The notes: generated by a model from the letters alone, not told the origin. Positions 3,274 through 13,566 are shown, numbered from the stretch's first letter. The stretch is DNA of 28,588 nt from a bacterium (Candidatus Gribaldobacteria) CG07_land_8_20_14_0_80_33_18 (GCA_002779425.1 PEWP01000013.1:1-28588), one strand, 5' to 3'. Program-made: numbers and translations.

Positions 3274-5784
3274 ATGTTTTTATCTAAACTCTTTGGCGCT
3301 TTTTTCAAAGCGCCTAATGAAAAATATTTAGAGAAACTTCAGCCAATTATTGAAAAAATTAATGAACTTGAACCAAAGTTTAAGAGTTTTTCTAAAGAAG
3401 AATTAAAGAAAAAAACCAATGAGCTTAAAGATCGATTAAAAAATGGAGAGAGTTTAAATGATGTTCTGGTGGAAGCTTTTGCTTTAGTAAGGGAGGCGGC
3501 GAAAAGAACATTAGACCAAAGACATTTTGATGTTCAATTAATGGGTGGAATAGTTTTGCATCAAGGAAAAATCGCTGAAATGAAAACCGGAGAAGGAAAA
3601 ACTTTAGCCGCTACTTTACCTCTATATTTAAATGCTTTAGAGGAAAAGGGTTGTCATTTAGTTACGGTTAATGATTATTTGACAAGAAGAGACACTGTTT
3701 GGATGGGACAAATTTATCACGCGCTCGGTTTGTCAGTTGGTTGTATAGCGCATGAGACAGCATATTTATATGACTCGGAATACAAAAAGCCAGCTGAGGA
3801 AAAGGAAAAAACGAGAGATGAATTGGGAGGCTTTTATATTGTTGAAGATTTTTTGAGACCTTGTACCAGAAAAGAGGCGTATTCAGCAGATATTACTTAC
3901 GGCACTAATAATGAATTTGCTTTTGATTATTTAAGGGATAATATGGTTTTTGATTTAAATCAGCAGGTTCAGAGACCTGCCCGCAATGCTTCGCATAGCG
4001 AAGCAGGCGGGGGATTTCACTATGCTATTGTCGATGAGGTCGATTCAATTTTAATTGACGAAGCCAGAACTCCTTTAATTATTTCTCAGCCAGATTTTGA
4101 GTCATCTAAGATGTATAAGGATTTTGCAGGAATAATTCCAAAATTGAAAAAAGATTCTGATTATTTAGTAGATGAAAAAAAGAAAGCAGCTACCTTAACT
4201 GAGGAGGGGATTAATAAACTGGAGAAAATTTTGGGGGTAGAAAACATCTATCAAGAGAAAGGGATAAAATATCTTCATCATTTAGAACAGGCGCTGCGGG
4301 CCCAGGTTTTTTTCGAGCGAGACAGAGATTATATTGTTAAAAATGGCCAGGTAATTATTATTGATGAGTTTACCGGTCGGCTTTTAATGGGTCGGCGATA
4401 TTCCGGGGGGCTCCATCAAGCGATAGAGGCAAAAGAAAGAGTAGAAGTTCAGGCCGAATCAAAGACTTTATCTACTATTACTTTTCAAAATTATTTCCGG
4501 CTTTATAAAAAATTAGGCGGGATGACAGGAACGGCCGCCACCTCAGCCGAAGAATTTGATAAAGTTTATGGTTTAGATGTAATAGTGATTTCAACCAATA
4601 AGCCAATGATAAGAAAGGATTTACCCGATAGAATTTATAAAACAGAGAGAGGAAAATATAAAGCACTTATAGAAGAGATTAAAGAAAGACACAAAACAGG
4701 CCAGCCTCTTTTAGTGGGGACGAGATCGGTTGAGAGAAATGAATATTTATCTAAATTACTTTCTCGGGAAGGAATTTCTCATCAAATTTTAAATGCCAAG
4801 CATCATGAGCAAGAAGGTCAAATTATTGCTCAGACAGGAAGATGGGGAGCTGTGACCATTGCCACAAATATGGCAGGTCGTGGGGTTGACATAATTTTGG
4901 GAGGAAATCCTCAAAATCCAGAAGAAGCAAAAAAAATTATTGGTTTGAATGGCCTCCATGTTATTGGCACCGAAAGGCATGAGGCAAGAAGGATTGACAA
5001 TCAGTTGCGGGGAAGAACAGGGAGACAAGGAGATCCCGGTTCGTCTCAATTTTTTATTTCGTTAGATGATGAATTAATGCGGATTTTTGGCGGAGAAAAA
5101 ATAAAATCTTTAATGGATACTTTTAAATTTCCAGAAGATGAACCAATTGAATTAAAGATAATTTCAAAAACCATAGAAAATGCCCAAAGCAGGGTGGAAG
5201 GATTTAATTTTGATATCAGAAAACATGTTTTAGAATATGATGAAGTAATGAACAAACACCGCGAAACAATTTATAAATTAAGGAAAAGATTATTGGAAGA
5301 ACCGGAAAAAATTCAAACGGAGCGGAGCATTAAAACTCAAATTTTAGAGATTATTGAAAATGAAATTAAGAGAATTGTTGAGAATTATGAATTGTCAGAA
5401 ATTTTTGAAGAGATAAAAACAATTTTTCCTTTATCCGAAGAAGCAATACTAAAGATGAAAGAAATGGAGAAAGAAGAAATTTTTAATTATTTAATTAACC
5501 TGGCAAAAAAAATCTATGAGCAGAAAGAAGAAAAGGATGGAAAAGAAAATATGAGAATACTTGAGAAGATGGTTTATTTGCGAATCATTGATAGTCTATG
5601 GCAAGAACATTTAGAGAACATGGAATATTTAAAGGAGTCGGTTGGTTTACGGGCTTACGGAGGAAGAGATCCTTTGGTTGAATATAAAACCGAAGGCCAT
5701 AAGATGTTTAAAAATTTACTAACTAACATTAATTTCCATCTTATTCGAACCATTTTCAAGCTGACCTTAACTCTTAAGATATGA
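3274..5784 (+). CDS. secA: Preprotein translocase ATPase SecA
   Basis: MKTGEGKT, VTVNDYL, YGTNNEFAFDYLRDN, IVDEVDSILIDEARTPLII, GMTGTA, ATNMAGRGVDI and QLRGRTGRQGDPG. No C-terminal SEC-C motif. Confidence 0.98.
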   Translation: MFLSKLFGAFFKAPNEKYLEKLQPIIEKINELEPKFKSFSKEELKKKTNELKDRLKNGESLNDVLVEAFALVREAAKRTLDQRHFDVQLMGGIVLHQGKIAEMKTGEGKTLAATLPLYLNALEEKGCHLVTVNDYLTRRDTVWMGQIYHALGLSVGCIAHETAYLYDSEYKKPAEEKEKTRDELGGFYIVEDFLRPCTRKEAYSADITYGTNNEFAFDYLRDNMVFDLNQQVQRPARNASHSEAGGGFHYAIVDEVDSILIDEARTPLIISQPDFESSKMYKDFAGIIPKLKKDSDYLVDEKKKAATLTEEGINKLEKILGVENIYQEKGIKYLHHLEQALRAQVFFERDRDYIVKNGQVIIIDEFTGRLLMGRRYSGGLHQAIEAKERVEVQAESKTLSTITFQNYFRLYKKLGGMTGTAATSAEEFDKVYGLDVIVISTNKPMIRKDLPDRIYKTERGKYKALIEEIKERHKTGQPLLVGTRSVERNEYLSKLLSREGISHQILNAKHHEQEGQIIAQTGRWGAVTIATNMAGRGVDIILGGNPQNPEEAKKIIGLNGLHVIGTERHEARRIDNQLRGRTGRQGDPGSSQFFISLDDELMRIFGGEKIKSLMDTFKFPEDEPIELKIISKTIENAQSRVEGFNFDIRKHVLEYDEVMNKHRETIYKLRKRLLEEPEKIQTERSIKTQILEIIENEIKRIVENYELSEIFEEIKTIFPLSEEAILKMKEMEKEEIFNYLINLAKKIYEQKEEKDGKENMRILEKMVYLRIIDSLWQEHLENMEYLKESVGLRAYGGRDPLVEYKTEGHKMFKNLLTNINFHLIRTIFKLTLTLKI
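3976..4011. repeat. 36-nt in-frame palindromic insertion in secA
   Basis: CCTGCCCGCAATGCTTCGCATAGCGAAGCAGGCGGG with stem TGCTTCGC-ATA-GCGAAGCA; encodes PARNASHSEAGG. Confidence 0.9.
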
Positions 5785-5796
5785 TAAAATGATTTT

Positions 5797-7086
5797 ATGG
5801 GAAAAAAGAAAATAGGCGTTAAATTGATATTTATTTTAATTTTAGTTTTTTTTACTTTTAATTTTGTTTATCCAAAATTTTTGAACCAGTACCTTGGTCT
5901 TAATTTTCCAGAAATTCCTTTTAAATTAGGGCTTGATTTGGTAGGCGGCTCGCGTCTCATTTACGAAACTGATTTATCAAAAGTAGAAAAAACAAAAACG
6001 GAAGCGCTGAGTGGTTTAAGAGATGTCATTGAAAAAAGGGTTAATATTTTAGGAGTGAGAGAACCCATAGTGAGAATTCAAGAGATTGGCGGTTCTGCTC
6101 GTTTGATGGTTGAATTGGCCGGCATAAAAAACGTAGAAGAAGCGATTAAAGCAATAGGCGAAACGCCGCTGCTTGAATTTAGAGAAATAGAAGTAAAGGA
6201 TTTGAACGCTCCGCTTCGCTCCGCTATAAATCCTTCGGATTTGAAACCAACATCTTTAACCGGTCAGTATTTAAAAAAGGCAAGTTTAGATTTTGACAAT
6301 GAAACTCTTGAGCCCATTGTTATTTTAGAGTTTGATAAAGAAGGAAAAGAGCTTTTTAAACAAATTACTTCCCGCAACGTTGATAAACCATTAGCTATCT
6401 TTATTGATAATAATTTGATTTCTTCGCCAGTGGTCAGAGAACCAATTTCTTCCGGCAGAGCTCAAATTACCGGAAATTTTACGCCGGAAGAGGCAAAAAA
6501 ATTAGTTAATAGTTTAAATGCCGGCGCCTTGCCAGTGCCGATAAAATTAATTTCTCAGGAAACAATTGCTCCCAGTTTAGGAAAAATTTCCTTAGAGAAG
6601 TCATTAAAAGCCGGTTTTTTCGGATTGTTGGGTATAATTTTGTTTATGATTTGTTATTATCAAATGGCCGGTTTGGCAGCTTCTTTATCCCTTTTGGTTT
6701 ATGGACTTATTCTTTTAAGTTTGTTTAAGTTATTTTCAATTACTTTAACTTTGGCTGGTATTGCCGGAGCTATTTTATCAATTGGTATGGCAGTGGACGC
6801 CAATGTTTTAATTTTTGCCAGAATGAAAGAAGAAATAAAGAAAGGCGATAGTTTTAGCCGGGCGATAGATATCGGTTTTAAACGGGCCTGGCCCTCAATC
6901 AGAGACGGTAATTTAACAACTTTAATTGAAGCAATGATTATGTTTTTTCTTGGCACCAGTTTTATTCAGGGTTTTGCCTTAACTACATCTTTAGGGATTT
7001 TGGTCAGTATGTTTTCTGCTATTTTTATTACTCAAACATTTTTAGAAATTTTTATCGGGTCAAAAGTAAGAAAACAAGATAAATAA
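5797..7086 (+). CDS. secD: Protein translocase subunit SecD
   Basis: KLGLDLVGG, RVNILGVREP, LAIFIDNN, ISSPVV, LNAGALPVP, IGMAVDANVLIFARMKEE and IRDGNLTT. Confidence 0.96.
   Translation: MGKKKIGVKLIFILILVFFTFNFVYPKFLNQYLGLNFPEIPFKLGLDLVGGSRLIYETDLSKVEKTKTEALSGLRDVIEKRVNILGVREPIVRIQEIGGSARLMVELAGIKNVEEAIKAIGETPLLEFREIEVKDLNAPLRSAINPSDLKPTSLTGQYLKKASLDFDNETLEPIVILEFDKEGKELFKQITSRNVDKPLAIFIDNNLISSPVVREPISSGRAQITGNFTPEEAKKLVNSLNAGALPVPIKLISQETIAPSLGKISLEKSLKAGFFGLLGIILFMICYYQMAGLAASLSLLVYGLILLSLFKLFSITLTLAGIAGAILSIGMAVDANVLIFARMKEEIKKGDSFSRAIDIGFKRAWPSIRDGNLTTLIEAMIMFFLGTSFIQGFALTTSLGILVSMFSAIFITQTFLEIFIGSKVRKQDK
6198..6245. repeat. 39-nt in-frame repeat unit in secD flanked by the GGATTTGAA direct repeat
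   Basis: GGATTTGAA at 6198 and 6237; core GATTTGAACGCTC-CGCTTCGCTC-CGCTATAAATC matches the reverse complement of 9338-9372. Confidence 0.85.
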
Positions 7087-7093
7087 AATAACT

Positions 7094-7996
7094 ATGGGGC
7101 TCATTCATTTTATTAAATATCGTAAAATTTTTTATTTAATCTCCGGAAGTTTAGTTGCTTTGAGTATCTTTATTATTGTAGTTTTTGGTTTGCGATTTGG
7201 AATTGAATTTACCGGTGGCACAATAATTAAGATTGAATATGAAAACACCAGGCCATCAGTTTTAGAAATAAAAGAAAAATTAAGAGAATTTCCGGGGATT
7301 ACAATTCAGGAAAAAGGGAATTTAGGAATAATTTTAGAAATGAAGGAAATTCCGCCAGAAACTCAATTTGAACTCATTAGGAAACTAAAAGAACTCGGAG
7401 AAATTAAAGAAGGTTCTTTAAGTGTTGAGACGATTGGACCGGTTATTGGCAAAGAAATGAGGCAAAAAACACTCATTGTTATTGTTTTATCTTTGTTCGC
7501 CGTATTAATTTATATTGCCATTGCTTTTTCTAAAGCTTCAAGACCGGTGAACTCTTTTATTTACGGAGTAATGGCTTTAATTGCTCTTTGCCATGATGTG
7601 ATTATTCCTTTAGGCGTTTTTTCAATTTTAGGTAAATACTTTGGAGTGGAGATTACTATCCCAATTATTACCGCTTTTTTATTTATTTTCGGTTATTCCA
7701 TTAATGATACAATCGTAATATTTGACAGGACTCGAGAAAATCTTTTAAAATTTTCAAAAGAGAATTTTGATGTTATTTTAGATAAAAGTCTTTCTCAGAC
7801 CTTAAGCCGTTCTTTAAGCATTTCTTTCACCACTCTCATTCCTCTTTTTGCTATATTTTTCTTTGGCGGAGAGACATTAAAATATTTTGTTTTGGCTTTA
7901 ATTTTAGGAATTAGTTTTGGCAGTTATTCTTCAATTTTTCTCGCTGCTCCCTTGGTTTATAGCTATTTTCTTTTCAGAGAGAAGAAAAAGGGTTGA
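7094..7996 (+). CDS. secF: Protein translocase subunit SecF
   Basis: GIEFTGGT, IGPVIGKEM, LCHDVII, GYSINDTIVIFDRTREN, QTLSRS and GSYSSIFLA. Confidence 0.96.
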   Translation: MGLIHFIKYRKIFYLISGSLVALSIFIIVVFGLRFGIEFTGGTIIKIEYENTRPSVLEIKEKLREFPGITIQEKGNLGIILEMKEIPPETQFELIRKLKELGEIKEGSLSVETIGPVIGKEMRQKTLIVIVLSLFAVLIYIAIAFSKASRPVNSFIYGVMALIALCHDVIIPLGVFSILGKYFGVEITIPIITAFLFIFGYSINDTIVIFDRTRENLLKFSKENFDVILDKSLSQTLSRSLSISFTTLIPLFAIFFFGGETLKYFVLALILGISFGSYSSIFLAAPLVYSYFLFREKKKG

Positions 7997-8021
7997 CATA
8001 AGAATAAAAATATAGTTAAAT
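7993..8021 (+). promoter_or_regulatory. Possible sigma70 promoter
   Basis: TTGACA 7993-7998 (overlaps the secF stop); TTAAAT lies 17 nt downstream, a weak -10 match. Confidence 0.4.
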
Positions 8022-8050
8022 AGATTAAGATAGAGAAATTATAGATTAAT

Positions 8051-9061
8051 ATGGAGAAATTCAATTATCAGAAAATTTGTCAGCAAATATTAAAACCATT
8101 AAATCCAGCCCAAAAAGAGGTGTTGGAGAGAAGATTTGGTTTAGTTTCGGCTGGAAGAGAAACCCTGGAATCAATTGGAAAAGATTTTGGCGTTACCAGA
8201 GAAAGAATTCGGCAGATTGAAAAAGAAGCTTTTTTAAAACTTCAAAGACAAAAAGAGGAAAGAATGGCAAAACTGGTTTTTTTCTCTTTTGAAACCTATT
8301 TTAGGAAAGCCGGGGGACTGAAGCGAGAAGATATTGCTTTATCTGATTTAGGCGGGAAAGATTTCCCAAATAATATTTCCTTTTTACTGACCTTTGGCGA
8401 CCCATTTTTTAAGTTTAAAGAAGCAGAAGAATATTACACTTTTTGGTCGGTTAACAAAGAGATCATCTCTAAAATTCCTTCATTATTAGAGCATCTGTAT
8501 CAACAGTTTAAAAAAATTGGTCATCCAATTTCTGAAGAAGAATTTGAAAAAGAACAAAAAATTGCTTCCCCTCAAATTATTCCCTCTCTGGTCGAAGTTT
8601 CAAAGAAAATAGAAATAGGACCCTCAGGAGTTTTGGGTTTAGTTAATTGGCCAGAAATTAAACCGAAGGGAGTAAAAGATAAGGCCTACTTAGTTTTAAA
8701 ACAAGAAGGAAAACCTTTGTATTTTAAAAAAATTAACGAGTCAATTAATTCAATGTTTTCTAATTTGAAACCGGTATTAACTCAGACGGTTCATAATGAG
8801 TTAATTCGAGATGAAAGATTTATTTTAGTTGGTCGAGGAATTTATGCTTTAAAAGAATGGGGATATGAACCGGGTGAGGTTAAAGACGTAATTATAAAAA
8901 TTTTAAAAGAGAGTAAAAATCCGCTTTCTAAAGAAGAAATTGTTAAAAGCGTTCTTGCCCAACGTTTGGTAAAAGAAAATACAATTTTACTTAATTTGAA
9001 TAATAAAGAATATTTTCTGAAGCTTCCTGACGGGAAATATATTTTTAAACAAAGCATATAA
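8051..9061 (+). CDS. Sigma-70 region 4 HTH protein with C-terminal winged-HTH-like domains
   Basis: EVLERRFGL...ETLESIGKDFGVTRERIRQIE is a region 4 HTH. No sigma region 2 motif is recognisable. C-terminal part includes VHNELIRDERFILVGRGIYAL. Confidence 0.75.
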   Translation: MEKFNYQKICQQILKPLNPAQKEVLERRFGLVSAGRETLESIGKDFGVTRERIRQIEKEAFLKLQRQKEERMAKLVFFSFETYFRKAGGLKREDIALSDLGGKDFPNNISFLLTFGDPFFKFKEAEEYYTFWSVNKEIISKIPSLLEHLYQQFKKIGHPISEEEFEKEQKIASPQIIPSLVEVSKKIEIGPSGVLGLVNWPEIKPKGVKDKAYLVLKQEGKPLYFKKINESINSMFSNLKPVLTQTVHNELIRDERFILVGRGIYALKEWGYEPGEVKDVIIKILKESKNPLSKEEIVKSVLAQRLVKENTILLNLNNKEYFLKLPDGKYIFKQSI

Positions 9062-9073
9062 CTTGAGCGCAAA

Positions 9074-9328
9074 ATGTTAATTTTTCAGTTTGGCTTAAAA
9101 ATTTTACTTTGGTTTACAATTATTTTTTGGGTAATCTTTTGCCCTTATTGTATTATTTGGACTGCACCCCATTTTTATTCGCCAAAAAATCCAAAAGCTG
9201 GTTTAATGATTTCTTTATTAGTGGCTTTTAAATTTTTTTTAATTGGTTTTTTTATTTTAGTTGCAATTTCTATTTTTCTTGCTTATCGCCAGGAGCTTTT
9301 TAGATTTATGTTTCCCGTTACTTCGTAA
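9074..9328 (+). CDS. Small hypothetical membrane protein
   Basis: 84 aa with two hydrophobic segments; co-oriented and fills the intergenic space. Confidence 0.6.
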   Translation: MLIFQFGLKILLWFTIIFWVIFCPYCIIWTAPHFYSPKNPKAGLMISLLVAFKFFLIGFFILVAISIFLAYRQELFRFMFPVTS

Positions 9329-9394
9329 AATCTGGTAAGATTTATAGCGAACGTAAGTGAGCGTTCAAATCTGGTAAGATTTATAGCGAAGCGT
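9328..9394. repeat. 39-nt-period tandem repeat element
   Basis: AAATCTGGTAAGATTTATAGCGAA at 9328 and 9367; each copy contains the AAATCT-GGTA-AGATTT hairpin. Confidence 0.85.
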
Positions 9395-9399
9395 TTATT

Positions 9400-10791
9400 A
9401 TGGATATTGTCCAGCTTGCCACAACATTAACTAACATATTGATAATAATCTGGCAGATTTTAAAAACCTGGTGGTGGTTTATTTTACCAGTAATTTTTTA
9501 TTTCCTTGCCCGTTATCTTTATGCTTATTGGGTGCGGTGGTTTTTTTGGTACCGGCAGTTTAAATGGGTTGTTCTTGAAATTAAAACGCCCAAAGAAATT
9601 TTAAAACCATTTAAAGCAATGGAAGATGTTTTTTCAGGTCTCTGGGGGATTATTGATGTTCCTAATTGGAGAGAAAGATGGTGTGAAGGCGAATTACCGA
9701 TAGGTGGAGGACTTTGGTTTTCTTTTGAAGTAGCCAGTTTTGGAGGGGACATTCATTTTTATCTGAGAGTGCCGGAAGGTGTTGACAATGTTGCTAAAAA
9801 TATCATTTATGCTCAATATCCAGAAGTTGAATTTAGTATAGTTAATGATTATACCAAAAATGTTCCTTCGAATATTCCTAATGAAAAATTTGATCTTTAT
9901 GGAGAAGATTTTACTTTTTTTAAAAAAAATGTTTATCCTCTCAAAACCTATCCGGAATTTTTTGAACCAATGGGAGAAAGAATTAGTAAAGAAGAAAAAA
10001 GAATAGACCCAATAAACGCTATTTTAGAGTCCTTGTCAAAACTTAATCCCGGGGAGCAAATTTGGATTCAAATTGTTGCTATTCCTATTACTAATGAACT
10101 TGTTCCTTGGATAGATGAAGGCAACAAAATTATTGAAAAAATAGCCAAAAGAACAAAACCAAAATCTAAACCGCTTATTGAAAGAGTGGCTAAAGGAATA
10201 GGGGATATTGCTGAAGAAATTGCTACGGGTGTAACAAAACCGGAGCGTTTAGAAGAAGTGAGAGAAAAAGCAATTTCACCAGCAGTTTCCGAAACCGGTG
10301 AGAGAGAAATGCTTATTACTCCCGGCGAAAGAAGAATTTTAACCGCCATCGAAAATAAAATATCAAAACCAGCCTATTTAACTTTTTTAAGGAGCCTTCA
10401 TATTTTTAAAACAGATGAACCCCATTTGCCAAAACATGACAAAATTCTCGATTCTTATCTTACTCATTTTGCTAGTGTTGACATGAATGCTTTACATCAC
10501 TTAGCGTCTACCCGAACGAGGATTCACTACTTTTTTAGGAAAAGCCGTAATTATGCCAGAGCCAGAAACAGTTTCAGGTATTATAAAGAAAGATTGCCTT
10601 ACTTTTGGCTTGCTTCAATGGAAGGGGAACCTCTTTGGAAATTAGGCCGGGGTAAAAAGAAAGCAACTGTTATTTTAAATACCGAAGAATTAGTTTCTAT
10701 TTTTCATTTTCCTTCTAAAATTGAACTTCCCACTGTTCCCCGGGTTGAAGCAAAAAAATCCGGGCCACCGCCCACTTTGCCTATTGAATAA
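9400..10791 (+). CDS. Hypothetical membrane-anchored protein, partner of the downstream ATPase
   Basis: N-terminal hydrophobic, Trp-rich segment; VLEIKTPKEILKP, WFSFEVASFGGDIHFY and LVSIFHFP; stop is 1 nt before the next ATG. Confidence 0.7.
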   Translation: MDIVQLATTLTNILIIIWQILKTWWWFILPVIFYFLARYLYAYWVRWFFWYRQFKWVVLEIKTPKEILKPFKAMEDVFSGLWGIIDVPNWRERWCEGELPIGGGLWFSFEVASFGGDIHFYLRVPEGVDNVAKNIIYAQYPEVEFSIVNDYTKNVPSNIPNEKFDLYGEDFTFFKKNVYPLKTYPEFFEPMGERISKEEKRIDPINAILESLSKLNPGEQIWIQIVAIPITNELVPWIDEGNKIIEKIAKRTKPKSKPLIERVAKGIGDIAEEIATGVTKPERLEEVREKAISPAVSETGEREMLITPGERRILTAIENKISKPAYLTFLRSLHIFKTDEPHLPKHDKILDSYLTHFASVDMNALHHLASTRTRIHYFFRKSRNYARARNSFRYYKERLPYFWLASMEGEPLWKLGRGKKKATVILNTEELVSIFHFPSKIELPTVPRVEAKKSGPPPTLPIE

Positions 10792-10792
10792 T

Positions 10793-12394
10793 ATGAAAAA
10801 AGAAGAGATAAATTTTTTCGGCCTAACAACTTTTCGTAATGAAAAGAAAAAATTTGGGATTAAACTTGACGATAGGCGTCGGCATTTTTATGCTGTGGGA
10901 AAAACCGGAATGGGAAAAACCGAACTTTTAAAAAATATGGCAATTCAGGATATAAGAAATGGTTGTGGAATTGGTTTTATTGATCCTCATGGCGAAGCAG
11001 CCGAAGACCTGCTTAATTTTATTCCCAAAGAGCGAATAGATGATGTCGTTTATTTTAATCCAGCTGATTTTGAATATCCGATTGCTTTTAATGTAATGGA
11101 AAAAGTTAGCGCTACCCATCGGCATTTAATAGCTTCTGGCCTGATGGGGGTTTTTAAAAAAATTTGGCCTGATGTTTGGTCTGCCCGGATGGAATATATT
11201 TTAAATAATTCTATTTTAGCTCTTCTTGAATATCCAGATTCTACTTTATTAGGGATAAATCGAATTTTAGCCGACCCTGATTATCGGAAAAAAGTTGTTG
11301 AAAATGTTACTGATCCGGTGATTAAAGCTTTTTGGACCCAGGAATTCGCCCGTTATACCGCTCGCTATGAAGTTGAAGCGACAGCTGCTATTCAGAATAA
11401 AATCGGCCAGTTTATTTCTGCTCCTTTAATTAGAAACAGTATTGGACAACTTCATTCTTTAATTAACATGAGAGAAGTGATGGATAAGGGAAAAATTTTA
11501 ATTGTTAATTTATCAAAAGGGAAAATCGGAGAAGATCCCTCGCGTCTTTTAGGAGGGTTATTGGTTACCAAATTACAATTGGCGGCAATGAGTCGGGTTG
11601 ATATGCCGGAGGAAAAAAGAAAAGATTTCTTTTTATATGTTGATGAATTTCAAAATTTCGCTACAGAGAGTTTTATTAATATTTTGTCTGAGGCAAGAAA
11701 ATATCGGCTTTGTTTAATTCTTTCCCATCAGTACATTACTCAAATGGAGGAGGAAGTTAGAGATGCGGTTTTTGGCAATATTGGCACTTTACTTTGTTTT
11801 CGGGTTGGAGCAGAAGACGCTGAATATTTAGAAAAAGAACTTACTCCCCAGCTGACTGCCGCTGATTTAGTTAATTTGGGAAAATTCAACATTTATTTAA
11901 AATTAATGATTGATGGAATCGCTGGCGATCCATTTTCTGCCGAAACCTTATTCCCCTTTGAAAGACCAAAAGAATCTTATAAAGAGGAAATAATAAAATT
12001 ATCGCGAGAGAAATATAGTGCTTCCAGAAAAATAGTAGAAGAAAAGATTGCTCAATGGACAGGAAATTATATTTTAAAAGAAGCTCCTCCTGCGCCGCCG
12101 GCTCTTTACGATGCCCAATGTAAAATCTGCGGCAAATGGATAAAAGTTCCTTTTAGACCAGACCTCAAAAGACCAATTTATTGCAAAACTTGTTTAAAAA
12201 AAGTTGAAGAAAAAAAGGAAAAAATTGTTGAAATTAAAACCATTTCTTTAAAAGAACTTTTACCTAAAGATGAGGAAAAAAACAAAAAACCAGTTTCTGA
12301 ACCTGAGTTAAAAAAAGTACTCAATGAGGCCTTAGAAGAAAAAGTAAAAAAAGGTATAATAAAACCAGGAGAGACAGTAAATTTTGACAAATGA
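10793..12394 (+). CDS. VirD4/TraD/HerA-like (DUF87-type) P-loop ATPase with C-terminal CxxC-x17-CxxC zinc ribbon
   Basis: DDRRRHFYAVGKTGMGKT (Walker A), IDPHGE, LYVDEFQNF (Walker B), LSEARKY and CKIC-17aa-CKTC. Start set at ATG 10793 (MKKEEINFFG). Confidence 0.85.
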   Translation: MKKEEINFFGLTTFRNEKKKFGIKLDDRRRHFYAVGKTGMGKTELLKNMAIQDIRNGCGIGFIDPHGEAAEDLLNFIPKERIDDVVYFNPADFEYPIAFNVMEKVSATHRHLIASGLMGVFKKIWPDVWSARMEYILNNSILALLEYPDSTLLGINRILADPDYRKKVVENVTDPVIKAFWTQEFARYTARYEVEATAAIQNKIGQFISAPLIRNSIGQLHSLINMREVMDKGKILIVNLSKGKIGEDPSRLLGGLLVTKLQLAAMSRVDMPEEKRKDFFLYVDEFQNFATESFINILSEARKYRLCLILSHQYITQMEEEVRDAVFGNIGTLLCFRVGAEDAEYLEKELTPQLTAADLVNLGKFNIYLKLMIDGIAGDPFSAETLFPFERPKESYKEEIIKLSREKYSASRKIVEEKIAQWTGNYILKEAPPAPPALYDAQCKICGKWIKVPFRPDLKRPIYCKTCLKKVEEKKEKIVEIKTISLKELLPKDEEKNKKPVSEPELKKVLNEALEEKVKKGIIKPGETVNFDK

Positions 12395-13566
12395 TTATGT
12401 TAAAAACACTTAAAGATTTTAATTTTTTCGATAAAAAAGTTTTAGTTAGAACAGATTTTAATGTGCCAATTGAAAATGGGAGAATTATTGATAGTTTTCG
12501 AATTGAGAGAACTCTTCCCACAATAAATTACCTTAGAGAAAAAGGTGCAAAAGTAATATTATTGTCTCATCAAGGCGATGGACTTTCCTTTCAACCAGTA
12601 GCCCTAAAATTAGAAGAACTATTAAAAAAACCGATAAAATTTTTAAATGACTGTTGCGGCAAAAAAGTAGAAAAAGAAATAAATAAAATGAAAAGTGGTC
12701 AGATAATTCTTTTAGAGAATTTAAGATTTTATCCCCAAGAAAAAGAAAATAATTTAGAATTTGCCAAAAATCTCGCAAAATTAGGCGATATTTATGTTTC
12801 TGAAGCATTTTCTGTTTCTCATCGTTCTCATGCTTCAATAGTTTCTTTACCGTTTCTTTTACAGGCAAAAGCTATCGGTTTTTTATTTGAAAAAGAAATG
12901 GAAACTTTATCTAAGGTATTAGGGCGCGCAGCGGCCAGGCCCGCCTGCGCAGGCAGGCCATTGGTTATTATTATTGGCGGGAAAAAGATTTCTTCCAAAC
13001 TTAAGGTAATCTCCAGTTTTATTGAAAAAGCTGACCATCTTCTTTTTGGAGGCGAATTGGCAAATGTAATTTTGAGAGTAAAAGGAATATGTGTGGGCAA
13101 GCCTTGGCCAGAAAAAGAAATGATTGAAGAAATTGGAAAAATAAATTTAACTGATACAAAAATTCATTTGCCGATGGATGTAATTGTTTCACCTGACGAG
13201 ACAGGAGAAATATATATTAAGGAAACCGGTCCGGGAAAGGTAAGAAAGGAGGAGGAAATTTTTGATATTGGTCCGGAAACAATTCAAACTTTTTCTTCTA
13301 TAATTAAAGAAGCAAAAACAATTATTTGGTCGGGCCCTTTAGGTTTAATTGAGAATAAACTATTTAAAAAAGGAACAGAAACAATTGCTCAAAGGATAGT
13401 TGCCAATACTTCGGCTTTTTCTATTGCTGGCGGGGGAGACACAATAAAGATTCTTCGCGAGCTTAATTTTATTGACAAATTTTCTTTTATCTCAACCGGA
13501 GGAAGCGCTATGCTTTCTTTTTTAGCTGAAGAAAAACTACCAGGAATTGAGGCGCTAAAAGTTTAG
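12391..13566 (+). CDS. pgk: Phosphoglycerate kinase (divergent)
   Basis: VRTDFNVP, LENLRF, SHRSHAS, IFDIGP, GGGDT, ISTGG and KLPGIEAL. Confidence 0.92.
   Translation: MIMLKTLKDFNFFDKKVLVRTDFNVPIENGRIIDSFRIERTLPTINYLREKGAKVILLSHQGDGLSFQPVALKLEELLKKPIKFLNDCCGKKVEKEINKMKSGQIILLENLRFYPQEKENNLEFAKNLAKLGDIYVSEAFSVSHRSHASIVSLPFLLQAKAIGFLFEKEMETLSKVLGRAAARPACAGRPLVIIIGGKKISSKLKVISSFIEKADHLLFGGELANVILRVKGICVGKPWPEKEMIEEIGKINLTDTKIHLPMDVIVSPDETGEIYIKETGPGKVRKEEEIFDIGPETIQTFSSIIKEAKTIIWSGPLGLIENKLFKKGTETIAQRIVANTSAFSIAGGGDTIKILRELNFIDKFSFISTGGSAMLSFLAEEKLPGIEALKV
12940..12957. repeat. 18-nt in-frame palindromic insertion in pgk
   Basis: CCCGCCTGCGCAGGCAGG contains the perfect palindrome GCCTGCGCAGGC and encodes PACAGR. 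Confidence 0.85.

What the first reader, a model, noticed from the sequence alone, without database searches (positions are those of the whole stretch)
6198..9394. The SecD loop and an intergenic tandem repeat are the same 39-nt unit, with a compensatory base change
Seen: the secD unit read on minus is AAATCC-GAA-GGATTT-ATAGCG-GAGCGAAGCG-GAGCGTTC (39 nt). The intergenic unit on plus is AAATCT-GGTA-AGATTT-ATAGCG-AACGTAAGT-GAGCGTTC (39 nt). The stem covaries (C-G versus T-A). In both places the hairpin end is duplicated at a 39-nt period. Inference: the hairpin is functional (recognition or target site), and the element inserts at, or duplicates, that hairpin.
Basis: seen in the sequence. Interest (0 to 1): 0.75.

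Follow-up and report, generated by a model that had tools for sequence, protein, structure and literature searches.

The report
Hairpin-linked GC-rich micro-repeat in SecD
The extra 13 amino acids in this tiny groundwater bacterium's SecD protein and the repeat between two nearby genes are copies of a species-specific, roughly 20-copy family of 36-39-base DNA repeats. Each copy is a GC-rich core placed directly after a small AT-rich hairpin, and the repeats sit between and inside essential genes and still change copy number between strains.

Summary
SecD (5797-7086) carries an antisense, in-frame 39-nt unit, and the 71-nt spacer at 9329-9399 holds 1.6 units of the same kind. Both belong to a genome-wide family ("module A", about 20 loci in 502 kb).

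Each unit has three parts:
- a locus-specific AT-rich hairpin, with a 4-6 bp stem and mostly a GAA-type loop;
- a shared core, TATAGCG-(RAGCG)1-3-AGCGTT;
- an A-rich tail that restarts the hairpin.

The period is 36 nt at three other loci and 39 nt in this window.

- Distribution: the family was not found in 150 genomes of the same order or 38 of the same family. All 185,579 species genomes gave only 8 single hits in unrelated taxa, about the number I estimated for chance.
- Activity: arrays vary between 99.7%-identical strains (1/2/3 units at one locus, 3/4 at another). The two window copies are fixed.
- Hairpin: hairpins with unrelated stem sequences end on the first T of the core at 4-5 independent loci. 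Flanking direct repeats are locus-specific. At rplP the native KTKF codons are duplicated around the insert.
- Mechanism: no cognate transposase was found.

The closest known elements are intragenic REPs, Rickettsia palindromic elements and mitochondrial hairpin elements. The scan has noted similar micro-elements in other Patescibacteria, but not this sequence.

The parts
5797..7086 (+). secD gene (429 aa), host of the in-frame copy
   Evidence: ORF list and translation. Pfam finds SecD_1st at residues 75-131, the P1 head at 152-247 and SecD_SecF_C at 249-416.
6198..6245 (-). Module A copy inside secD. It is 39 nt plus a 9-nt direct repeat, antisense to the gene, and is read as residues 135-149, DLNAPLRSAINPSDL.
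   Evidence: nhmmer E=3e-11. It lies in the hypervariable linker between the P1 base and the P1 head. The shortest relatives read EFREEIKEEPYFKPT there. In the AlphaFold model it is coil with the lowest pLDDT (58).
6228..6242 (-). AT-rich hairpin of the secD copy: AAATCC-GAA-GGATTT (6 bp stem, GAA loop). Its 3' arm ends on the first T of the core.
6205..6228 (-). GC-rich core of the secD copy: TATAGCG-GAGCG-AAGCG-GAGCGTT, a pentamer repeat (TRF period 5).
6198..6206 (+). First copy of the 9-nt direct repeat GGATTTGAA (the second is at 6237-6245). It gives the DL...DL duplication in the protein.
9328..9366 (+). Intergenic unit 1 (39 nt): hairpin AAATCT-GGTA-AGATTT, then core TATAGCGAACGTAAGTGAGCGTT, then C. 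It starts on the last A of the upstream TAA stop.
   Evidence: Its 31-nt core is identical to the copy on contig C13.
9367..9399 (+). Intergenic unit 2 (truncated): the same hairpin plus a minimal core TATAGCGAAGCGTT, ending 4 nt before the ATG at 9400.
   Evidence: In relatives the orthologous spacer is 1-30 nt, AT-rich and repeat-free.
9074..9328 (+). Upstream neighbour: an 84-aa membrane protein with no Pfam family.
9400..10791 (+). Downstream neighbour: a 463-aa protein with no Pfam family, conserved and syntenic in 24 of 24 relatives.

Best explanation
Both features are copies of a lineage-specific, non-coding, non-autonomous DNA micro-repeat, here called module A.

The shared part is a 14-24-nt GC-rich core, TATAGCG-(RAGCG)n-AGCGTT. 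It lies immediately 3' of a short AT-rich hairpin, and an A-rich tail after the core repeats the start of that hairpin.

Inferred mechanism:
1. The core is copied into a new site next to a hairpin-forming, A-rich sequence.
2. Copying goes by a DNA-level process that duplicates 7-16 nt of the target. The most likely route is replication or repair template switching, or snap-back priming, at the hairpin. A structure-specific nuclease may start it.
3. The resulting hairpin-core-hairpin arrangement then grows and shrinks by slipped-strand mispairing in whole units of 36 or 39 nt.

Insertions in genes survive only where the length is 3n, the frame is open and the protein tolerates a loop. In SecD the copy adds 13 residues to the flexible linker between the P1 base and the P1 head.

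What is shown: family membership, species specificity, hairpin adjacency, locus-specific direct repeats, unit-wise copy-number polymorphism, and the in-frame tolerated position.

What is inferred: the insertion mechanism and the enzyme.
For: Family:
- About 20 loci share the core; nhmmer E-values run from 1e-13 to 1e-2.

Species specificity:
- 14 pattern hits in the own genome. There were no real hits in 150 genomes of the same order or 38 of the same family.
- All 185,579 GTDB species gave only 8 single hits in unrelated taxa, about the number I estimated for chance.

DNA-level element, not a conserved peptide:
- Copies are read in three different frames or strands: KTKFIAKRSGAF, NEVYSEAKRSVK, and antisense NAPLRSAI.

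Insertion:
- At rplP the native C-terminus KTKF[IV]KK*, present in 23 relatives, is interrupted. The 12 nt AAAACGAAGTTT stand on both sides of the insert, and the old end KTKFLKK* is still readable downstream.
- The orthologous spacer in relatives is 1-30 nt without the repeat.
- The SecD site is a hypervariable linker that carries the repeat peptide in none of 29 relatives.

Hairpin linkage:
- Stems of 6 bp or more, of unrelated sequence, end at the core start at the secD/9329 lineage and at the C41, C22 and miaB loci. The background frequency is 0.019.

Locus-specific flanking repeats:
- 1 of 5000 permutations reaches the observed similarity.
- At miaB the AT-rich part of the unit is the local start-codon region.

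Ongoing unit-wise change:
- 1, 2 or 3 units at the histidine-kinase locus and 3 or 4 units at miaB, among strains 99.7% identical.

Tolerated position:
- Coil, lowest pLDDT, between two Pfam domains.

Related nested module:
- A double hairpin ('module B') sits in the loop of module A, flanked by 12-14-nt direct repeats. It has 9 of 17 pairs with compensatory changes and almost no G.U pairs, which shows that hairpin formation at the DNA level is maintained in this repeat system.
Against: - No filled-versus-empty allele of any module A locus was found. The secD, 9329, rplP and C22 copies are identical in all conspecific contigs, so an insertion event has not been observed directly.
- No close congeneric genome exists in the collections: SecD identities jump from 99% to 66%.
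- The direct repeats vary in length (7-16 nt) and several are imperfect. This does not fit a single staggered-cut transposase.
- Copies are co-oriented with the surrounding genes 18 to 1 (and manual reading), which a purely neutral DNA parasite does not predict.
- Predicted folding energies of single copies are modest, with z-scores from 0 to -3.
- No cognate enzyme was identified.
Confidence: 0.72

Rival explanations
1. Module A is a cis-acting RNA element, such as a 5'-UTR or intercistronic stabiliser, a processing site or a translation-initiation context. On this reading its sense orientation is selected, and the secD copy is an accidental antisense stray.
For: - 18 of 19 loci are co-oriented with the flanking genes.
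- Many copies end 3-12 nt before a start codon. In some, the core's GGAG lies 7-10 nt upstream of the ATG.
- The invariant G.T pair in the AGCG/CGTT stem is strand-specific.
Against: - Intergenic spacers in this genome and its relatives are only a few bases long. Any intergenic insert therefore abuts a start codon.
- Genes are strongly co-oriented per contig, with a mean majority share of 0.83. Orientation to transcription cannot be separated from orientation to replication.
- Many copies lie inside ORFs, in different frames.
- There is no Rfam family, no covariation above shuffles and only weak folding.
- The family is absent from all relatives although the flanking genes are conserved.
Confidence: 0.12
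2. Module A is a classical transposase-driven miniature element, either a REP/REPIN mobilised by a RAYT or a MITE derived from an insertion sequence.
For: - Small size.
- An imperfect terminal inverted repeat: GTTTATAGCG / CGTTAAAAAC, with 8 Watson-Crick pairs and 1 G.T of 10.
- Flanking direct repeats.
- One rve-type integrase gene exists on contig C11.
Against: - No Y1/RAYT, IS110, TnpB or reverse transcriptase gene was found in a genome rated 99.7% complete.
- There is no GTAG or CGTC tag.
- Copies are in direct tandem, not inverted pairs.
- Direct-repeat length is not constant (7-16 nt).
- The AT-rich arm differs from locus to locus, unlike fixed transposon ends.
Confidence: 0.08
3. There is no mobility. 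Each locus arose on its own by slippage of a local (AGCGN)n microsatellite, and the similarity is convergent or due to chance.
For: - The core is a pentamer repeat (TRF period 5).
- The number of pentamers differs between copies.
- Unit-level slippage is directly observed.
Against: - Twenty columns, including TTTATAGCG on the 5' side and AGCGTT on the 3' side, are invariant across 14 copies.
- The copies on C13 and at 9329 share 31 identical bases.
- The control pattern read backwards gives 0 hits in the own genome against 14 for the real pattern.
- The genome is 33% GC, so such GC-rich seeds are not expected by chance.
Confidence: 0.03

Closest known systems
Intragenic and extragenic REPs (GTAG- and CGTC-tagged palindromic repeats; Di Nocera et al. 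2013, PMC3733652), including BIME-type mosaics
   Same: - Palindromic repeats of 20-40 nt.
- Species-specific families.
- Mostly between co-directional genes, with some copies inside genes.
- Combine with other modules into mosaics.
- CGTC REPs also lack a known transposase (abstract read).
   Different: - No GTAG or CGTC tag, and no RAYT.
- Units stand in direct tandem rather than as inverted dimers.
- The hairpin arm is locus-specific and only the GC-rich core is shared.
- Long direct repeats flank the copies.
- Fixed unit period of 36 or 39 nt.
Rickettsia palindromic elements (RPE)
   Same: - A reduced, AT-rich genome.
- Repeats inserted in frame into essential protein genes, read through as extra surface loops, and also present between genes.
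- No known enzyme (established knowledge; also the comparison chosen by earlier scan notes).
   Different: - RPEs are 100-150 bp and fold as one long stem; this unit is 36-39 nt with a 4-6 bp AT stem.
- There is no sequence relation.
- This family shows tandem arrays with copy-number polymorphism.
Repetitive hairpin-forming elements, double-hairpin elements and GC clusters of sponge and fungal mitochondria (PMC2800124)
   Same: - Short GC-rich hairpin or double-hairpin repeats in an AT-rich compact genome.
[quoted passage not shown]
- Not removed from transcripts (passages read).
- Module B is a close structural analogue of a double-hairpin element.
   Different: - The host is a bacterium rather than an organelle.
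- Module A's own hairpin is AT-rich and locus-specific.
Coding and 5'-proximal VNTR/minisatellite arrays that change by slipped-strand mispairing
   Same: Whole-unit gain and loss between near-identical strains, with a period of 3n.
   Different: A VNTR is confined to one locus. Here the same core is dispersed over about 20 loci.

Membership tests
REP / REPIN (RAYT-mobilised) | Imperfect palindrome of 20-40 nt | tested here: inconclusive
   An imperfect 10-12 nt inverted repeat exists (GTTTATAGCG / CGTTAAAAAC). Its inner 7 pairs are invariant, its outer pairs are mostly unpaired, and covariation is not above shuffles. Folding z-scores run from 0 to -3.
REP / REPIN (RAYT-mobilised) | Conserved unpaired GTAG (or CGTC) tag at one end | tested here: not met
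   Neither tag is present in the 14-copy alignment.
REP / REPIN (RAYT-mobilised) | A RAYT (Y1 transposase) gene in the genome | tested here: not met
   PF01797 gives no match in the own genome (99.7% complete, 57 contigs). The control genomes do give matches.
REP / REPIN (RAYT-mobilised) | Units commonly paired in inverted orientation | tested here: not met
   All multi-unit loci are head-to-tail.
MITE | Terminal inverted repeats shared with a parent insertion sequence | tested here: not met
   No longer element with these ends was found. Only one rve gene (C11) and one tyrosine recombinase (C18) are present. No IS110, TnpB or Y1 gene was found.
MITE | Target-site duplication of a fixed length | tested here: not met
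   Direct repeats are real and locus-specific. Their lengths differ, though: 9 nt (secD), 12 nt (rplP), 11-12 nt (miaB), 16 nt (9329) and about 7 nt (C22).
Rickettsia palindromic elements | In-frame insertion in protein genes as well as intergenic copies | tested here: met
   In-frame copies occur in SecD, LigA, Tmk and a radical-SAM protein. Others lie in the RpoA and S16 tails, at the L16 end and at the GrpE and histidine-kinase N-termini.
Rickettsia palindromic elements | Length of 100-150 bp with one long stable stem, and homology to the RPE families | tested here: not met
   The unit is 36-39 nt with a 4-6 bp stem. There is no Rfam match. Homology to RPE sequences was not tested directly.
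Mitochondrial-type repetitive hairpin or double-hairpin elements (an analogy, not a homologous family) | Short GC-rich hairpin repeats in an AT-rich compact genome, lineage-specific, intergenic and in variable parts of genes | tested here: met
   The genome is 32.8% GC. GC-rich islands cluster into families. The family is species-specific. Module B's double hairpin has 9 compensatory pairs.
Known RNA families (Rfam 15) | A match to a curated covariance model | tested here: not met
   No family matches the elements at the gathering threshold or at E<=1.

The most novel reading that the evidence does not exclude
Module A would be a structure-targeted insertion system of a kind not yet described. 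A roughly 20-nt GC-rich pentamer-repeat core, itself made of GCGAAGC-type mini-hairpin motifs, is placed specifically at the 3' foot of AT-rich GAA-loop DNA hairpins and duplicates them. A host or selfish structure-specific nuclease would drive this. The two small stand-alone GIY-YIG genes of this genome are candidates, not a transposase. The locus-specific stems would then record the targets, and the elements would be a general way in which ultra-small bacteria gain new protein loops.
Probability: 0.15. Interest if true: 0.8.

Novelty: new variant of a known kind. Interest (0 to 1): 0.58.

Why it matters
A 0.5-Mb, nearly minimal genome would be expected to be free of repeats. This one carries several families of GC-rich hairpin repeats. 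One of them writes extra residues into at least eight housekeeping proteins (SecD, DNA ligase, thymidylate kinase, GrpE, and the L16, S16 and RpoA termini, among others), and it still changes copy number between co-existing strains.

The family gives an unusually clear handle on mechanism. The shared core always follows a hairpin whose sequence differs from site to site, and local direct repeats flank it. That points to a structure-guided, transposase-independent way of spreading DNA.

It also matters for annotation. These insertions shift stop and start codons, as at the L16 and S16 ends and the miaB start. They also look like lineage-specific protein 'loops' in alignments and structure models of Patescibacteria.

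Tried and rejected
1. Empty site in a close relative:
- The metagenome scan with SecD gave one 83%-identical contig (L049), but it starts just after the loop.
- The protein search found nothing between 66% and 99% identity.
- All 6 sequence variants of the conspecific SecD carry the insert.

2. Strain polymorphism at the two window copies:
- None was found in 10 conspecific contigs.
- None was found in Logan contigs of 4 further runs. Those contigs bridge the secD copy without gaps.
- Contig breaks at 9340-9369 are explained by the 31-mer shared with contig C13.

3. Expression: no RNA holder was listed for this stretch, so nothing can be said about transcription or about retention of the insert in mRNA.

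4. Rfam: there is no family for module A or B. The only hits were tRNAs and RNase P.

5. Alternative genetic code: the idea was that TGA read-through joins the 9329 repeat to the downstream ORF. I dropped it without a separate test, because table-11 ORFs tile the window.

6. CRISPR-like reading of GTTT...AAAAC 36-mers: rejected, because the units abut without spacers.

7. LigA as a clean empty-site case: rejected as inconclusive. The linker length varies from 6 to 34 residues among relatives.

8. Three exact-protein look-ups failed because I cut minus-strand genes one codon short, and a fourth did on its first try. One search repeated the miaB look-up correctly. The repeat still found nothing on record.

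9. Literature: two full-text searches found no description of such repeats in CPR/Patescibacteria.
Full report
**Observation**

The window is contig C34 of a 502-kb, 32.8% GC genome in 57 contigs, rated 99.7% complete. Names given by public sources to the homologous SecD proteins place it among Patescibacteria (CPR). Its near-identical strains come from groundwater and aquifer metagenomes.

In secD (5797-7086, +) the minus strand reads AAATCC-GAA-GGATTT-ATAGCG-GAGCGAAGCG-GAGCGTTC-AAATCC. On the plus strand the 9-mer GGATTTGAA stands at 6198-6206 and again at 6237-6245, 39 nt apart. The protein therefore reads K-DL-NAPLRSAINPS-DL-KPT.

The 71-nt spacer at 9329-9399 lies between an 84-aa and a 463-aa ORF. 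It consists entirely of AAATCT-GGTA-AGATTT-ATAGCG-AACGTAAGT-GAGCGTTC followed, 39 nt later, by a second and shorter unit that ends 4 nt before the ATG. The shared 11-mer and 13-mer are far beyond chance.

**A genome-wide family**

Searching the whole genome shows that these are members of a family I call module A.
- About 20 loci lie on 14 contigs.
- All share TTTATAGCG, one to three further RAGCG pentamers, and AGCGTT followed by A-rich sequence.
- Twenty alignment columns are invariant over 14 copies.
- The commonest form is AAAAC-GAA-GTTTATAGCG-AAGCG-AAGCG-GAGCGTT-A.
- This form stands in head-to-tail arrays with a 36-nt period on contigs C17 and C48. A variant array on C4 also has a 36-nt period.
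- The window copies and one on C13 form a GATTT subfamily with a 39-nt unit.

The family is specific to this species.
- The pattern hits the own genome 14 times.
- There were no real hits in 150 genomes of the same order or in 38 of the same family.
- A stricter pattern gives 8 single hits in unrelated taxa across all 185,579 species genomes. That is about the number I estimated for chance.

A second family, module B, is a roughly 65-nt double hairpin.
- It has about 17 copies and was not found in the 60 nearest genomes.
- On contigs C23, C41 and C18 it lies nested in the loop of module A, flanked by 12-14-nt direct repeats of that loop.
- Its consensus structure has 17 pairs. Nine of them have compensatory double changes, and there are almost no G.U pairs.
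- B occurs in both orientations relative to genes.
- So in this repeat system hairpins are kept at the DNA level, or on both strands.

GC-rich islands of the genome cluster into several more families. Rfam has no model for any of them.

**DNA-level insertion, not a protein motif**

Copies lie inside or at the ends of many housekeeping genes.
- Internal copies: SecD, DNA ligase, thymidylate kinase and a radical-SAM enzyme.
- Terminal copies: the RpoA and S16 tails, the L16 end, and the GrpE and histidine-kinase N-termini.
- They are read in two different sense frames, and in SecD on the antisense strand. No peptide is conserved.

The clearest junction is at rplP.
- Twenty-three relatives end L16 with KTKF[IV]KK/R-stop.
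- Here the 12 nt AAAACGAAGTTT (the KTKF codons) stand on both sides of an A+B composite.
- The old end KTKFLKK-stop is still readable after the insert, and the gene now ends ...KTKFIAK-stop.

The SecD site is a hypervariable linker.
- Among 29 relatives its length runs from a minimal EFREEIKEEPYFKPT to more than 60 extra residues. None of them has the repeat peptide.
- It lies between the SecD_1st and P1-head Pfam domains.
- In an AlphaFold model (mean pLDDT 82) it is coil with the lowest confidence of the protein.

For the intergenic copy, the gene pair is syntenic in relatives. Their spacer is 1-30 nt, AT-rich and repeat-free.

**The hairpin**

Over 14 copies, the long stem GGATTTATAGCG / CGTTCAAATCC gives no covariation signal. 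Its inner pairs never vary, its outer pairs are unpaired in most copies, and the covariation score is reached by 69 of 500 shuffles.

The C13 copy has a C.A mismatch where the two window copies have C-G and T-A. Each 'compensatory' state is therefore one step from a mismatch.

A different comparison is strong. I asked only for a hairpin whose 3' arm ends on the first T of the core. The loci then carry stems of unrelated sequence:

| Locus | Hairpin |
|---|---|
| secD | AAATCC-GAA-GGATTT |
| 9329 spacer | AAATCT-GGTA-AGATTT |
| C41 | AAACGT-(9 nt)-ACGTTT |
| C22 | ATTTTT-GAAT-AAAAAT |
| miaB | ATTATT-ATGA-AATAAT |
| common form | AAAC-GAA-GTTT |

At 4,933 other TATA sites of the genome, a stem of 6 bp or more occurs in 1.9% of cases.

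The AT-rich part is at least partly local.
- At miaB it is the start-codon region of the gene, repeated with each unit.
- At rplP it is the native KTKF codons.
- Over 16 loci, the 5' part and the 3' flank of the same locus resemble each other more than those of different loci (1 of 5000 permutations).

**Activity**

The two window copies, the rplP copy and the C22 copy are identical in every conspecific contig examined, at 99.7% identity. Arrays do change, however.
- The histidine-kinase locus has 1, 2 or 3 units of 36 nt in ten independent assemblies.
- The miaB array has 3 or 4 units.

These arrays are shorter than a sequencing read, and the 1-unit allele carries its own base change. Assembly error is therefore unlikely.

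**Mechanism**

Shown:
- a shared GC-rich core;
- a hairpin immediately 5' of the core;
- locus-specific direct repeats of 7-16 nt;
- nesting of modules with duplication of the host loop;
- gain and loss of whole units.

Not found:
- Y1/RAYT, IS110, TnpB or reverse transcriptase genes;
- only one rve gene, one tyrosine recombinase and two small GIY-YIG genes are present.

The variable and sometimes imperfect direct repeats, set against nearly identical cores, argue against a staggered-cut transposase. They favour template switching or snap-back priming at hairpins during replication or repair, followed by slipped-strand expansion. This step is inference.

The 18:1 co-orientation with genes remains unexplained. 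It keeps an RNA-level role as the main rival. Two facts weaken that rival: spacers are so short that proximity to start codons is unavoidable, and gene direction cannot be separated from replication direction.

**Comparison and novelty**

Module A works like intragenic REPs (PMC3733652), Rickettsia palindromic elements, and the GC-rich hairpin and double-hairpin elements of sponge and fungal mitochondria (PMC2800124). It fails the defining tests for REP/RAYT membership, for MITEs and for RPEs (see the membership table).

Two full-text searches found no description of such repeats in CPR. Earlier notes of this scan report similar micro-elements in this window and in many other Patescibacteria genomes. 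A sequence look-up found this particular family nowhere else.

I rate it a new variant of a known kind. Its distinctive features are the locus-specific hairpin joined to a shared core, and the demonstrable unit polymorphism.

Noticed in passing
Own genome: C41:2022-2196, C23:11728-11794, C18:15148-15214, C5:5658, C19:15540, C44:9643, C52:17373 and 18826, C45:6141, C55:20752, C43:5855, C1:4248, C27:10630: Module B is a species-specific double hairpin of about 65 nt: GAGG-stem-CCGCAG-stem, then GGGAAATTC...GAATTTCCC-AGTGG. Nine of its 17 pairs show compensatory changes. It occurs in both orientations, sometimes nested in module A or another hairpin element, and sometimes abuts tRNA genes.
   Followed up: partly
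window 12914-12966 and 13 other islands of the own genome (e.g. C23:19761, C50:4436, C55:20885): A third family is a perfect GC palindrome of about 18-20 nt, CCTGCCTGCGCAGGCGGG. It has 14 islands, some in tandem, and one lies inside a window ORF region.
   Followed up: no
Own genome C2:4170-4470 (between the ftsA-like and ftsZ genes): A 92-codon stand-alone GIY-YIG nuclease ORF is flanked by a perfect 14-nt inverted repeat (ACCCTGTGAAATAA / TTATTTCACAGGGT). It looks like a tiny mobile cassette.
   Followed up: partly
Own genome C33:215-640: A tRNA is followed by GC-rich hairpins and then a second small GIY-YIG ORF (382-588). Its stop runs into TTTATAAGCCAAGCGTTCAAAC, which looks like a minimal module A core (nhmmer E=4, not significant).
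   Followed up: partly
Own genome C4:18756-18869 and conspecific loci L251-L257: Each 36-nt unit of the array upstream of miaB repeats the gene's own start region. It therefore carries a mini-ORF ATG-AAA-TAA. Strains differ by one unit.
   Followed up: partly
Own genome C41:2000-2533: Ribosomal protein S16 has a lysine-rich C-terminal tail that is cut short by a stop codon inside an A+B+B composite insert. The former tail (…KPVEEKPKEEKVE-stop) is still readable downstream in another frame.
   Followed up: partly
Own genome C17:13313-13420 and loci L211-L220: The histidine-kinase ORF may begin upstream of the array. If so, the 36-nt units would be read as 12-residue N-terminal repeats (NEVYSEAKRSVK), and gene callers give 540, 552 or 564 aa in different strains. 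The true start codon is uncertain.
   Followed up: partly
window 9400-12394: The conserved 463-aa protein with no Pfam family is followed by a TrwB/TraG-type coupling-protein ATPase. The pair is syntenic with secDF in most relatives.
   Followed up: no
All arrays: C17, C48, C4 (36 nt); window (39 nt): Three arrays have the same 36-nt period even though they split it differently, into roughly 12-15 nt of AT-rich part and 21-24 nt of core. I have no explanation for the constant total length beyond it being a multiple of 3.
   Followed up: no
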